A stretch of DNA of 64,000 nucleotides. Origin: Candidatus Babeliales bacterium. GTDB taxonomy: Bacteria > Babelota > Babeliae > Babelales > JBFXEV01. This document shows, piece by piece, positions 45,001 to 48,000 of this stretch (positions are counted from its first letter, which is position 1; the number at the start of each line of letters is the position of its first letter). The DNA is taken from assembly GCA_050179755.1 (NCBI GenBank), contig JBFXEV010000001.1, positions 137,994 to 201,993 on the forward strand, written 5' to 3'. The position numbers are program-made.

Positions 45001-48000
45001 ACTGGCACGTTAGATCCTTTTGCCACAGGTCTTTTGATTATTGCATTTGGCCGCAGCGCCACAAAACATAGTGATAAATTCTTAAGACTAGATAAAACAT
45101 ATGTTGCTAAAGGCAAGTTAGGCCAGCTTACTGATACATTAGATTATACAGGCACGGTGATTGTTCAAGCTGATGCTTCTGCAATTCATCAATTTGATAT
45201 AGAATCTGCCATTCAACAACTTGGCATCCAGTACACGCAAACACCACCAATCTATGCAGCTCTTAAGCATCAAGGAAAACCTCTTTATCAACTGGCTCGT
45301 AATGAAGAACTTACGGCCCAAGAACTTGCACAAATTGCTGAACAAAAACAAAGAACGGTGAACTTATATAAACTTGAACTTATTGACTGGCAGCCACCTT
45401 TCTTTACGCTAAAAGCGCATGTCTCTCACGGCACGTATATTCGATCGCTCGTCAATGATATTGCACAACGCGCAGGCTCATGCGCTACCACGTATGAACT
45501 TGAAAGAACCAATATTGGTCCATTTTCACTAGATAATGCAATAACTCTTAATGAGATTACAACACTTGATGATATTAAAAAACATCTCATTTCAATTAAA
45601 AATATGCTCGACTATCTGTGTTAGTTAATGCTGCTATAGGCCGTTTTAATGTTTTGCTGCAGATTGAATTTCAGCTTTTACGCGTTGCGATCTTGGTTTC
45701 TAAGGTTTTGTTTTAAACATCGTGCTTAATGTCAAACTTCATTCGCTCAATATATACCCAATCTAATAACGTTATCTTGGCAGGGCAATTGCCACAATGT
45801 TCGCCATTTTTACAATCAAACCATTTTTCACAAAAAACATCTGCCACAGTCCTACCAGTGCCATCTTTTTGCTGTAATATTTCACGCAGTTTAGTAATTA
45901 TTTGATCAAATTTTGTTTGAGCATCTGCTTTTTTCTTTACATCTTCTTCGCAAACAACTTGGTATAATCCTCCTTGCGCAAGGCATATGCTGCGCACTAA
46001 TTGCCTAAGTACTACTTTACCATCCGGTACCTGACTTCTTGGATAACTATGTTTAGCATCGGTAATTCTATCAGCGCATAGATGAAATAAAGTTTTTTTA
46101 TTTGCTTTAAGAGTGACTGCAAAATCAGCTCCATGACTTAGCAACAAATCCACTGATTGCCATGCATGCTTTAATTGTTGTTGGCAACGCTCATCACTAT
46201 CAGCCTTTATGTATAGTGCTTGAGCCACTGCTACATACAATGGAGATTTCCCCGTGTATGTATCAACCACATTCACTGCAGCCTTTGCTTGGAGCAAGGC
46301 ATTTGCAACCACAACAGATCCTTGTTTTATTGCTATCATTAAAGGAGCTTCACCCGGAAACTTCCGATTTGATTTATTAGCAGCGTTAACGTCAACGCCG
46401 GATTTATCAATTACATTTTGTAATAACAAGATGTCCCCTGTTGTTACCGCGTGCATAAAACGCAACTGATTGCCTACTGCTTCCTTATTCATAGCAACTA
46501 TTGCGTTTGCGGCAACAGCTATCAATAAAAAAAAGAAAATGTGCAATTTTTTAGAGTCTTGCAATAATCTCGCGCTCAATGAATTTATATTTAACGCCTT
46601 TAATTTCTTGATACTCATCAGATCCCTTTGCAAGCAAAGCAATAATTGAATTTTTTTGACTTATGGAATAAGCATATTTAATTGCTTCTTCACGATCCAG
46701 CACCGTATGCACTTTATGCATTAAATCTGGCGCTATACCTCGTTTAATATCTTCAATAATATGTTCTGGTTCTTCACTCCTTGGATTATCAGTGGTAAGC
46801 ACGATTGAATCTGCATATTTTGCAGCAATTCCACCCAAGATTGGCCGCTTAATAGTATCACGATTGCCACCGATGCCAAACACTACAATGAGATCTTTAG
46901 TATGTGCACACAAAGTTGAAAGCACTGCCTCAAATGATGATGGCGTATGTGCATGATCAATAATACACTGTGCACCATTGGGCAGCCCATATGTTTGCAT
47001 GCGCCCTTTAACTCCCGGAAAATTTTCTAAGCTACTCTGCAAAATTTCAGGCGCAATGCCTAAAGATTTGCATAAGGCAAAGCTCATACCAATATTATAA
47101 GCATTAAAAGTTCCCACGAGCTTGGGGCAACGCACTGCATGATCATTAATCAATAATGATAAACCCTCTGCCATAGAACTATGTTGCACACTTACGTTGT
47201 AATCAACGTCATTATTAATACCCACCGTCAAAACATTTTTTTTAGCATTAACATCTAAATGCTGCGGGATATCTGTTACTCTTGCATCATCACCATTTAG
47301 CACAATTGGTGCATCAACACTCAACTGTTCTAATATTTTACATTTTGCTGCAAAATACTCATCTTGTGTTGCATAAAATTCTGCATGCTCTTGCGAAAAG
47401 TTAGTAAAAATAACGCCAGCAAATTGTATGCCATGCACCCGAGAAAGTGAAAGCGCTTGCGCAGAAACTTCCATAACTACATGTGTTACACGTTCACGCA
47501 CGCATTCGCTCAAGAAAACATGTAAATAATCTGCATGTGGTGTAGTAAGAGATTGCGGCAAAATATGCTCACCAATTTGATTATGCACGGTGCCGAGTAA
47601 CGCAGTTTTATAGCCAGCCGCTTCTAGCATTGCACGCACAATAAAGCTTGTGGTGGTTTTACCTTTGGTGCCCGTAATGCCAATGATATGCAATTGATCT
47701 GCCTGATTATCATTGTGTAGTGCTGCTAGCTGTGCAAAACGCTCACGAATATTTTCTGCATATTCAAGCTGCACGTTGTGTGCATTGAGAAATGCCACTA
47801 AATCTTGCTCAACTAGGGTATCACAAGGTGCAACAATGTGGGTTGCACCCTTTTTTACTGCATCTGGTATAAATTGTACGCCATGAGTTTTAGCTCCTGG
47901 CAACGCTACAAATATGGTGCCCTGCCCCACGTTATCGGTGTGGCAGGCAACCGGATATATTTTTGGAAATTGGTAGTTCATGATCTTATTCAATGAGTTC

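What a model noticed while it worked through the whole genome (the two positions that open the first line are those of the whole stretch)
46551..47981. meso-DAP-type MurE (DNPR motif) in a genome with no diaminopimelate pathway
The genome encodes a complete peptidoglycan pathway whose MurE (g00164) carries the D-N-P-R motif of meso-diaminopimelate-adding ligases, yet no gene of DAP/lysine synthesis is present, and eukaryotic hosts make no DAP. I propose that the third stem-peptide residue is either mDAP scavenged from bacterial prey digested by the protist host (NagZ-, NamZ-, LdcA-like genes and an OPT transporter are kept) or a home-made surrogate such as meso-lanthionine from the CysK/CBS-like enzyme g00032. 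New would be a cell wall whose cross-linking residue depends on third-party bacteria eaten by the host, or a second lineage after Fusobacterium with lanthionine in its wall.
Evidence so far: g00164: Mur_ligase, Mur_ligase_M, Mur_ligase_C; 33-35% identical to Cytophaga, Aquifex and Bacteroides mDAP ligases; DNPR at residues 398-401. No DHDPS, DapB_N/C, DAP_epimerase, Orn_DAP_Arg_deC, Semialdhyde_dh, AA_kinase, Aminotran_1_2, THDPS_N_2, Peptidase_M20 rows; six-frame searches: PF01678 and PF00701, 0 hits at E<=0.1 with positive controls. MurA-F, MraY, MurG, MurJ, FtsW/RodA, PBPs, Alr, MurI, Ddl present. g00122 Glyco_hydro_3, g00155 NamZ, g01345 Peptidase_S66, g00797 OPT. g00032 is 42% identical to cysteine synthase, CBS and cysteate synthase. 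DNPR as mDAP determinant: recalled; MurE papers naming it were seen as a listing only. 'Diaminopimel' occurs in none of the three Dependentia [...]
(Added by a program. Inside this text positions count along the whole contig: contig position 137,994 is position 1 of the stretch shown here. "Call 12" and the like, gene names such as g00115 and contig names such as C1 are that model's own, and its searches are not shown. The text may have been shortened before it was handed on; [...] marks where a part breaks off. The agent that wrote the report below was given it as the finding of a first reader that could run no searches.)

Follow-up and report, generated by a model that had tools for sequence, protein, structure and literature searches.

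The report
DAP-type MurE without DAP synthesis
This parasite of protists keeps a cell-wall enzyme built to add diaminopimelate although its whole phylum cannot make that compound, and the neighbouring genes suggest it uses a sulfur-bridged look-alike or an imported residue instead.

Summary
Window 46551-47981(-) encodes a 476-aa MurE with D-N-P-R at residues 398-401. It passes NCBI's mDAP-ligase equivalog cut-off. The 1.53-Mb genome has no DapA, DapB, DapF, LysA, Asd or Mpl.

The gap is phylum-wide: in 151 sampled genomes MurE is in 147 and DapA in 0. DNPR is kept in 94 of 101 MurE sequences examined.

- A CBS/CysK-like PLP enzyme accompanies MurE in 144 of 147 genomes. It is missing from all four genomes that lost MurE. 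CysE is in 0 of 151.
- In a sister clade this gene sits beside a genuine DapF-type epimerase (24 of 29 DapF-bearing genomes). That is the genetic signature of a meso-lanthionine route.
- In this genome's clade DapF is mostly gone. An AGCS-family amino-acid symporter lies directly 5' of murE in about 98 of 116 genomes, here at 48096-49490(-). It is fused to MurE in at least 10 protein clusters.

MurE of this clade also changed the residue that binds the substrate's distal amine (E. coli E468 to Asp).

Most likely the third residue is a DAP look-alike, lanthionine-type or imported. Its chemistry is untested.

The parts
46551..47981 (-). murE, 476 aa (alternative TTG start at 48023)
   Evidence: three Mur-ligase domains; NF001126 407.7 bits, over its cut-off of 373
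46779..46790 (-). codons for D398-N399-P400-R401, the motif that holds the free carboxylate of mDAP in E. coli MurE
   Evidence: position; aligned to DNPR of 2wtz and 7b6o/1e8c; role of the motif, PMC3829189 passages; DNPR in 94 of 101 phylum MurE sequences
46617..46622 (-). codons for S454-D455, aligned with E. coli H467-E468 (E468 binds the distal amino group)
   Evidence: my count on the alignment; role: H-E in the 25 MurE of the DapF-bearing families, P-D in most of the other 76 (D in 63 of 76)
47457..47462 (-). codons for A174-Q175, aligned with E. coli S185-H186 ('EVSSH')
   Evidence: S-H in the DapF-bearing families, A-Q in 76 of 76 MurE of this genome's clade
47982..48095 (-). 114-nt spacer between the symporter gene and murE
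   Evidence: no terminator-like or promoter-like site on the minus strand in this interval (pattern scan only)
48096..49490 (-). AGCS-family (Na_Ala_symp) amino-acid:cation symporter, 464 aa, directly 5' of murE
   Evidence: PF01235, 268.8 bits; TIGR00835, 285.7 bits, over 272.65; with (orthologue in 116 of 151 genomes, beside murE in about 98; fusions to MurE; changed pocket residues)
49517..49936 (+). ruvX, divergent; the conserved upstream border of the locus
   Evidence: relatives without the symporter at this place have ruvX directly beside murE
42791..44767 (-). H+-pyrophosphatase, the conserved downstream neighbour of murE in the phylum
   Evidence: PF03030 next to murE in L111, L120, L123, L124, L187; in this window the 658-aa ORF was not itself run against Pfam and is named by likeness of place and length

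Best explanation
The gene is a working MurE whose pocket still expects a residue with two amino-acid ends, as in diaminopimelate: an amine to be ligated and a free distal carboxylate and amine. The cell cannot make DAP. I think it most likely loads a sulfur-bridged look-alike of the lanthionine type, made by the CBS/CysK-like PLP enzyme at contig 42545-43519 from imported cysteine or serine. The AGCS symporter transcribed with murE would feed this step.

Shown:
- MurE, its motif, and its conservation across the phylum.
- Absence of DapA, DapB, DapF, LysA and Asd in this genome.
- Phylum-wide absence of DapA and of CysE.
- Co-occurrence and co-loss of the CBS/CysK-like enzyme with MurE.
- The cysK-like/dapF operon in the sister clade.
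- Symporter-murE synteny and fusion.
- Clade-specific changes at a residue that contacts the substrate.

Inferred:
- That the PLP enzyme makes lanthionine.
- What the symporter carries.
- How the D-centre arises without DapF. One route is condensation of L-Cys with D-Cys, as the Fusobacterium enzyme can do. Another is a re-tuned MurE that accepts the L,L isomer.
For: 1. MurE is under selection with its DAP-type pocket.
- MurE is in 147 of 151 genomes.
- Among 101 sequences examined (this genome plus 100 fetched of the other 146 genomes with MurE): D398 in 101, N399 in 98, P400 in 100, R401 in 98; the E. coli R389 position is R or K in 101.
- The Arg of DNPR binds the D-centre carboxylate of mDAP and is replaced by Ala in the Lys-adding S. 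aureus enzyme.

2. No DAP synthesis: DapA 0 of 151; own-genome searches.

3. The CBS/CysK-like enzyme is tied to MurE.
- It is in 144 of 151 genomes.
- It is absent from all 4 MurE-less genomes, in three families. Those four also lack MraY over the cut-off.
- It scores below every curated CysK/CysM/CBS cut-off.
- CysE is over the cut-off in 0 of 151.

4. In 24 of 29 DapF-bearing genomes the gene lies beside dapF on the same strand (places; read directly in L001 and L004).
- The DapF-like protein passes the TIGR00652 cut-off (188.8 against 114.65).
- Of 22 examined, it keeps the residues that hold the distal amino-acid end: N64 in 21, N157 in 21, N190 in 22, E208 in 22, R209 in 22.
- It has Gly in 18 of 22 where H. 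influenzae has Gln44. Gly is the state of the lanthionine-tolerant Anabaena and Arabidopsis enzymes.

5. Precedent in F. nucleatum, which lacks the DAP pathway.
- Its CysK1 is an essential lanthionine synthase.
- It makes meso-lanthionine directly from L-Cys plus D-Cys.

6. Every MurE-bearing genome (147 of 147) has the CBS/CysK-like gene, the murE-linked symporter, or both.
Against: - This genome has no DapF, and no other epimerase candidate was identified.
- G130 (99% complete) has MurE, MraY and the symporter but no PALP-fold enzyme. So the PLP enzyme is not always needed.
- G079 lost MurE and the PLP enzyme but kept the symporter.
- The fusion of the symporter to MurE, rather than to the PLP enzyme, fits import of the finished residue better.
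- The DapF versus symporter pattern is essentially one deep split on the MurE tree: 2 changes of the symporter state and 5 of DapF on 93 rows. The independent-pairs test had no power. Alr follows the same split. The pattern therefore cannot count as repeated evidence.
- In the DapF-bearing families, MurI is over the cut-off in 3 of 26 and Alr in 1 of 26. DapF there might serve another racemisation.
- No chemistry of any wall from this phylum was found in the papers searched.
Confidence: 0.45

Rival explanations
1. The third residue is imported whole. Free mDAP (from bacteria digested by the host, or from a host with a DAP-type lysine pathway) or another ready-made bis-amino acid is taken up by the murE-linked AGCS symporter and ligated directly. 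The CBS/CysK-like enzyme then has an unrelated role.
For: - The symporter orthologue lies directly 5' of murE on the same strand in about 98 of the 116 genomes that have it (my reading of the places).
- Full-length symporter-MurE fusions occur in G123 and G059 (916 and 917 aa, 74.5% identical).
- Ten fusion clusters are in the large protein collection, one only about 45% identical to the rest.
- The C-terminus of AgcS is cytoplasmic, so a fused MurE sits inside the cell.
- The two residues that limit AgcS to Ala and Gly are changed. I165 is G, A, S or T in 30 of 34. F273 is Asn in 21 of 34.
- Family members are known to carry glutamine.
- G130 has MurE and the symporter but no PLP enzyme.
- MurE of this clade changed the residue that binds the distal amine.
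Against: - The PLP enzyme is kept in nearly all genomes of this clade although the phylum sheds genes freely.
- Seven MurE genomes have neither the symporter nor DapF, and no other transporter lies beside murE in them.
- G079 keeps the symporter without MurE.
- If the cargo were true mDAP, the canonical H-E of mDAP ligases would be expected to stay. It is the clade without the symporter that keeps H-E.
- No AGCS member is known to carry a dicarboxylic diamino acid (passages).
Confidence: 0.3
2. MurE adds an ordinary host amino acid such as L-lysine or L-ornithine, and DNPR is an inherited motif that does not decide specificity.
For: - Specificity cannot be read safely from one motif. The S. 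aureus A409R mutant gained no mDAP activity.
- T. maritima MurE, with DDPR, adds L- and D-lysine (name of entry 4bub; the motif is visible in its alignment).
- Seven of 101 phylum MurE have variant motifs: DDPR 3, and DNPA, DNPG, DNPK and DNCR 1 each.
Against: - The Arg is kept in 98 of 101 sequences across deep divergence in a phylum with no DAP. That argues that a distal carboxylate is still being bound.
- Characterised DNPR enzymes reject Lys and Orn (V. spinosum).
- The co-loss of the PLP enzyme with MurE would remain unexplained.
Confidence: 0.12
3. The symporter is only an alanine/glycine carrier that feeds L-Ala and D-Ala into the stem peptide. Its place beside murE is co-regulation without any link to the third residue. 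This rival concerns the transporter's role, not the identity of the residue.
For: - The named family function is Ala/Gly transport, and AgcS carries both L- and D-alanine.
- The symporter clade is also the clade that has Alr: 1 of 26 in the DapF-bearing families, against 51 of 55 in f3, for example.
- Several genomes with the symporter lack Alr and would need D-Ala from outside.
Against: - The pocket residues that restrict AgcS to Ala and Gly are not kept.
- The linkage and the fusions are to murE, not to alr, ddl or murC.
Confidence: 0.1

Closest known systems
mDAP-adding MurE of E. coli and M. tuberculosis (PDB 1e8c, 2wtz)
   Same: - Three-domain Mur ligase, E about 1e-59 to 1e-62.
- DNPR, the R389-equivalent Arg, E182, H210 and the carbamylated K224 positions are kept (numbering by my count on the alignment).
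- Passes an mDAP-ligase equivalog cut-off.
   Different: - E468 is Asp and H467 is Ser (Pro in most of the clade).
- S185-H186 is A-Q, and D212 is Glu.
- G464 is Ala in this genome alone (1 of 101).
- No DAP pathway stands behind it.
Lanthionine wall of Fusobacterium nucleatum (CysK1/FN1220 lanthionine synthase)
   Same: A bacterium without a DAP pathway whose CysK-family PLP enzyme supplies the third residue. CysK1 is essential, and its loss is rescued by lanthionine.
   Different: - In Fusobacterium the DapF homologue is a histidine racemase with poor lanthionine turnover.
- In the sister clade here the DapF-like enzyme keeps all the distal-site residues and is in an operon with the PLP gene.
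- This genome has no DapF at all.
- The PLP enzyme here scores best on the CBS core model.
- I did not compare it with FN1220 itself.
- No wall chemistry is known.
AgcS, the Na+/alanine symporter of Methanococcus maripaludis (PDB 6cse)
   Same: - Same family: TIGR00835 over its cut-off.
- E 1e-51 over residues 22-450.
- Q170 and E276 are kept.
   Different: - I165, F273, T366 and W370 are Ser, Asn, Val and Tyr here.
- Encoded in front of murE and fused to it in relatives.
Chlamydiae and Rickettsiales: intracellular bacteria that keep a wall
   Same: Obligate intracellular life with a retained Mur pathway.
   Different: They keep DAP synthesis, through DapL in Chlamydia (review passages). Chlamydial DapF doubles as a glutamate racemase (title and abstract listing). 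The DapF-like protein here scores 60 bits on the bifunctional model, against a cut-off of 350.
MurE-MurF fusion proteins
   Same: Long proteins that contain a full MurE.
   Different: Most long relatives found are MurE/MurF fusions. Only 10 of the 120 listed carry PF01235 in front of MurE.

Membership tests
MurE (UDP-MurNAc-tripeptide synthetase) | Three Mur-ligase domains and a family-level HMM score | tested here: met
   TIGR01085 388.8 bits (cut-off 257.3); PF01225, PF08245 and PF02875 all over their cut-offs
meso-DAP-adding MurE | D-N-P-R motif | tested here: met
   role of the motif
meso-DAP-adding MurE | Equivalog score over the curated cut-off | tested here: inconclusive
   one of eight mDAP-ligase equivalog models is passed (NF001126, 407.7 against 373). 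The other seven are below their cut-offs.
meso-DAP-adding MurE | Glu at the E. coli E468 position, partner of D413 for the distal amine | tested here: not met
   Asp455 here; D in 63 of the 76 MurE of this clade
meso-DAP-adding MurE | mDAP available in the cell | tested here: not met
   no DapA, DapB, DapF, LysA or Asd. Import was not testable.
meso-DAP-adding MurE | Ligation of mDAP in vitro | not testable with these tools
   needs an enzyme assay
Lanthionine-type wall (Fusobacterium kind) | CysK/CBS-family beta-replacement enzyme outside a canonical cysteine pathway | tested here: met
   PALP fold; below all the CysK, CysM and CBS cut-offs; CysE 0 of 151
Lanthionine-type wall (Fusobacterium kind) | A source of the D-centre (epimerase or D-cysteine) | tested here: not met
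   no DapF in this genome. It is met in the sister clade.
Lanthionine-type wall (Fusobacterium kind) | Lanthionine found in the wall | not testable with these tools
   needs muropeptide analysis
AGCS family (TC 2.A.25) | Family HMM over its cut-off | tested here: met
AGCS family, alanine/glycine-specific type | Small hydrophobic pocket (AgcS I165, F273, T366, W370) | tested here: not met
   Ser, Asn, Val and Tyr here

The most novel reading that the evidence does not exclude
A whole bacterial phylum builds its wall without diaminopimelate, and it solved the problem in two ways. One clade makes meso-lanthionine with a CBS/CysK-like synthase and a DapF-type epimerase encoded as an operon. The other clade, which includes this genome, dropped the epimerase, re-tuned the distal-amine site of MurE, and tied MurE to an amino-acid symporter, in some species as a single polypeptide. 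The third wall residue, or its limiting precursor, would then pass from the transporter straight to the ligase. This would be the first transport-coupled Mur ligase and a second lineage with a sulfur-bridged wall.
Probability: 0.3. Interest if true: 0.85.

Novelty: new variant of a known kind. Interest (0 to 1): 0.72.

Why it matters
The third stem-peptide residue carries the cross-link and is what host sensors of the iE-DAP type recognise. A phylum of widespread protist parasites that has a DAP-type ligase but no DAP pathway poses a clear chemical question.

The comparative data turn that question into bench tests:
- What is the mass of residue 3?
- What does this MurE accept?
- What does the fused symporter carry?

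If lanthionine is confirmed, Fusobacterium is no longer the only case. The DapF-type enzyme of the sister clade would also be a natural lanthionine epimerase, the enzyme that is still missing in Fusobacterium.

A symporter-MurE fusion would be a new architecture for precursor supply. None of the papers I searched mentions the source of DAP, or lanthionine in the wall, for this phylum (searches; passages of PMC4776705 and PMC6561590).

Tried and rejected
- **D-cysteine-desulfhydrase-family enzyme.** I tested the second PALP protein of this genome (contig 1065869-1067050) as a possible stand-in for DapF. It occurs in 58 of 151 genomes, in both clades and without pattern. Rejected.
- **Muropeptide reuse.** Mpl is not found and no M14/MpaA-type peptidase is found. 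An LdcA-like protein is present. Reuse of whole tripeptides looks unlikely.
- **DapF as a Chlamydia-type glutamate racemase.** Not excluded. The bifunctional model scores 60 against 350 and the distal-site residues are kept. But MurI is over its cut-off in only 3 of 26 genomes of the DapF-bearing families.
- **D-amino-acid transaminase as the D-Glu source.** PF01063 is in 10 of 151.
- **Another transporter beside murE** in the seven genomes with neither DapF nor the symporter. None was seen. The neighbours are ruvX, thrS, a BamB-like protein and ankyrin genes.
- **Independent-pairs test of DapF against the symporter on the MurE tree.** Three to five pairs, so no power.
- **RNA evidence for co-transcription.** No RNA holder is listed, and read laying was not run.
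- **Earlier notes of this scan.** Three look-ups returned nothing.
- **Not attempted.**
  - No structure prediction or complex prediction was run.
  - I did not compare the PLP enzyme or MurE with the Fusobacterium proteins, because I had no tool-given copy of them.
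Full report
**The thing itself.** Window 46551-47981(-) is an open frame of 476 aa from ATG; a TTG 42 nt upstream would give 490 aa.
- It has the three Mur-ligase domains.
- It scores 388.8 bits on the MurE subfamily model and 407.7 bits on NF001126, an mDAP-ligase equivalog with a cut-off of 373. The other seven mDAP-ligase equivalog models and the L-lysine-ligase model are below their cut-offs.
- The best solved relatives are the mDAP ligases of M. tuberculosis and E. coli and the L/D-lysine ligase of T. maritima.
- D-N-P-R starts at residue 398 and aligns with DNPR of the mDAP enzymes.

Passages of PMC3829189 give the roles of these residues:
- Asn and Arg of the motif hold the carboxylate of mDAP that is not in the peptide bond.
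- Asp, together with E. coli Glu-468, holds the distal amino group.
- The Arg is Ala in the lysine-adding S. aureus enzyme.

Passages of PMC3681970 show a DNPR enzyme that rejects Lys and Orn.

**No DAP pathway.** The genome is one contig of 1,525,295 bp, rated 96% complete. Six-frame HMM searches, each with positive controls, gave:
- no DapF, no DapA, no DapB, no Semialdhyde_dh;
- no LysA beyond an 11-bit hit at the place later scored as Alr;
- no Mpl over its cut-off.

**It is a property of the phylum.** In 151 genomes sampled evenly from the phylum (all labelled 'same order'), MurE is found in 147 and DapA in 0. I fetched MurE from 100 of the other 146 genomes that have it: 92 full matches and 8 C-terminal pieces. 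I aligned them with this one.
- The motif is DNPR in 94 of 101. The rest are DDPR 3 (all family f2) and DNPA, DNPG, DNPK and DNCR once each.
- The Arg is kept in 98 of 101, and the R389-equivalent is R or K in all 101.
- Such conservation, in a phylum that sheds genes freely, argues that a distal carboxylate is still bound.

The two genome papers I read in passages note the lack of amino-acid synthesis and, in one case, 'a complete mur pathway'. Neither discusses the third residue (PMC4776705, PMC6561590). A review of walls in intracellular bacteria shows that the other groups keep DAP genes.

**A PLP enzyme that travels with MurE.**
- It scores best on the cystathionine beta-synthase core model. 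It is below every curated cut-off for CBS, CysK and CysM.
- Serine acetyltransferase is over its cut-off in 0 of 151 genomes. So it is not part of the usual cysteine pathway.
- A relative of it is found in 144 of 151 genomes.
- The seven genomes without it include all four that lack MurE: G028, G043, G079 and G096, in three families. Those four also lack MraY over its cut-off.
- The other three are G064 and G103, which are fragmentary assemblies, and G130.
- G130 is 99% complete. It has MurE and MraY but no PALP-fold enzyme at all.

**A DapF operon in the sister clade.** DapF is found in 29 of 151 genomes although none has DapA. The hits are concentrated in families f7 (3 of 3), f11 (12 of 12) and f13 (6 of 6), with single genomes elsewhere.
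- By comparing the places, the PLP gene lies beside dapF on the same strand in 24 of the 29.
- In L001 and L004 the two frames abut or overlap.
- The DapF-like protein passes the DapF equivalog cut-off (188.8 against 114.65). It scores only 60 against 350 on the bifunctional chlamydial model.
- In 22 copies examined, the residues that hold the distal amino-acid end of DAP are kept: N64 in 21, N157 in 21, N190 in 22, E208 in 22, R209 in 22.
- The two catalytic Cys are present in 20 and in 22.
- The position of H. influenzae Gln44 is Gly in 18, Cys in 3 and Thr in 1.

Passages of PMC12039745 name those distal-site residues. They report that DapF of Anabaena and Arabidopsis, with Gly at that place, epimerises lanthionine as fast as DAP, while the H. 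influenzae enzyme does not.

F. nucleatum provides a precedent:
- It lacks DAP synthesis.
- Its CysK1 is an essential lanthionine synthase.
- That enzyme makes meso-lanthionine directly from L-Cys and D-Cys.
- Its DapF homologue is a histidine racemase.

For the sister clade, a home-made meso-lanthionine route is therefore the natural reading.

**A symporter tied to murE in this genome's clade.** The gene directly 5' of murE, 48096-49490(-), is an AGCS-family carrier. The 114-nt spacer shows no terminator-like or promoter-like site, by pattern scan only.
- Its orthologue (37-59% identical, E below 1e-75) is in 116 of 151 genomes.
- By my reading, it lies directly upstream of murE on the same strand in about 98 of them.
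- In 10 more it lies 0.7-3.6 kb away on the same strand.
- In 3 it is on another contig, and 4 cases cannot be told.
- G079 keeps it without MurE.
- A second paralogue (27-31% identical) is never linked to murE.
- The frame of the locus is ruvX | [symporter] murE ... H+-pyrophosphatase. Genomes without the symporter at this place have ruvX directly beside murE.

In G123 and G059 a second symporter copy and MurE form one protein of 916 and 917 aa. Both parts are full length, and the two proteins are 74.5% identical. The large protein collection holds 10 clusters of such fusions. Nine are 70-89% identical to one another, and one is about 45% identical to the rest.

The C-terminus of AgcS is cytoplasmic, so the fused ligase sits inside the cell. 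The residues that restrict AgcS to Ala and Gly are changed. I165 is G, A, S or T in 30 of 34 orthologues. F273 is Asn in 21 of 34. Here they are Ser and Asn. Family members carry glutamine in Campylobacter and Staphylococcus.

**One deep split, not many events.** A MurE tree of 93 full-length rows splits with support 98.
- One side holds families f7, f10, f11, f13 and f17. These have DapF and no linked symporter.
- The other side holds all the rest, which have the symporter and mostly no DapF.
- The symporter state changes twice on the tree and the DapF state five times. The independent-pairs test had no power.
- Among the 147 MurE genomes: 25 have DapF only, 111 the symporter only, 4 both (G065, G068, G072, G114) and 7 neither.
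- Alr follows the same split, with 1 of 26 in the DapF families.

The complementarity therefore cannot be counted as repeated evidence.

MurE itself differs between the two sides at only six columns. The DapF families keep the canonical S-H, D and H-E. These are E. coli S185-H186, D212 and H467-E468, by my count on the alignment. This genome's side has A-Q (76 of 76), E, and mostly P-D (D in 63 of 76). E468 is the partner of D413 for the distal amine. So the ligase changed at a substrate contact when the supply changed.

**What this means for the window.** Every MurE genome has the PLP enzyme, the linked symporter, or both (147 of 147). These look like two routes to the same substrate.
- I rank an in-house thioether look-alike first (0.45), because the PLP enzyme is the most constant companion of MurE.
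- Import of the finished residue through the symporter comes second (0.30), because of the fusions and of G130.
- A plain host amino acid comes third (0.12).
- The role of the symporter as a mere alanine carrier stays possible (0.10).

How a D-centre arises without DapF is unsolved. The options are D-cysteine as a co-substrate, or acceptance of the L,L isomer by the altered MurE. Nothing here is chemistry. Residue 3 has not been measured in any member of the phylum in the papers I could search.

Noticed in passing
phylum sample; own MurI at contig 670400-671101: Glutamate racemase is over its cut-off in only 31 of 151 genomes, and a D-amino-acid-transaminase-type protein (PF01063) is in 10 of 151, although MurE is in 147. 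The source of D-glutamate in most of the phylum is unexplained.
   Followed up: partly
phylum sample: Alanine racemase is in 108 of 151 genomes but in only 1 of 26 genomes of the DapF-bearing families, so their D-alanine source is unknown. Several genomes of the other clade carry two Alr genes in tandem (for example G108, G144, G095, G126).
   Followed up: no
L193 4734-5180 and 5204-6262 (G140); G137 contig 1111384-1112182: In one genus (g36), MurE of G140 is split into two frames and DapF of G137 is in two sub-cut-off pieces. MurE of G048 and G137 has Ile or Val at the E468 position. The wall pathway may be decaying or changing there.
   Followed up: partly
MurE of G002, G075, G055 (family f2; L067, L076, L094): These three have DDPR, the motif seen in the T. 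maritima L/D-lysine ligase alignment. G002 and G075 also lack Alr.
   Followed up: no
window 45713-46642 (-): An ankyrin-repeat ORF (Ank_2) lies between murE and the pyrophosphatase gene. With its TTG start it would overlap the last 92 nt of murE, so its true start is probably further downstream.
   Followed up: no
own genome contig 1065869-1067050 (L106 1366-2550): A 394-aa PLP enzyme of the D-cysteine desulfhydrase / D-cysteate sulfo-lyase family, below all cut-offs, with a hydrophobic N-terminus. It is found in 58 of 151 genomes. In two genomes of genus g4 it lies within about 2.5 kb of murE.
   Followed up: partly
window 46629-46631 (-), MurE residue A451: This genome alone, 1 of 101, has Ala where E. 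coli has G464 and all other phylum MurE have Gly.
   Followed up: no
L107, L108, L115; G052 and G090: The murE-linked symporter is duplicated in tandem in several genomes. The two copies differ at the F273-equivalent position: Asn in the first copy, Ser in the copy next to or fused with murE.
   Followed up: partly
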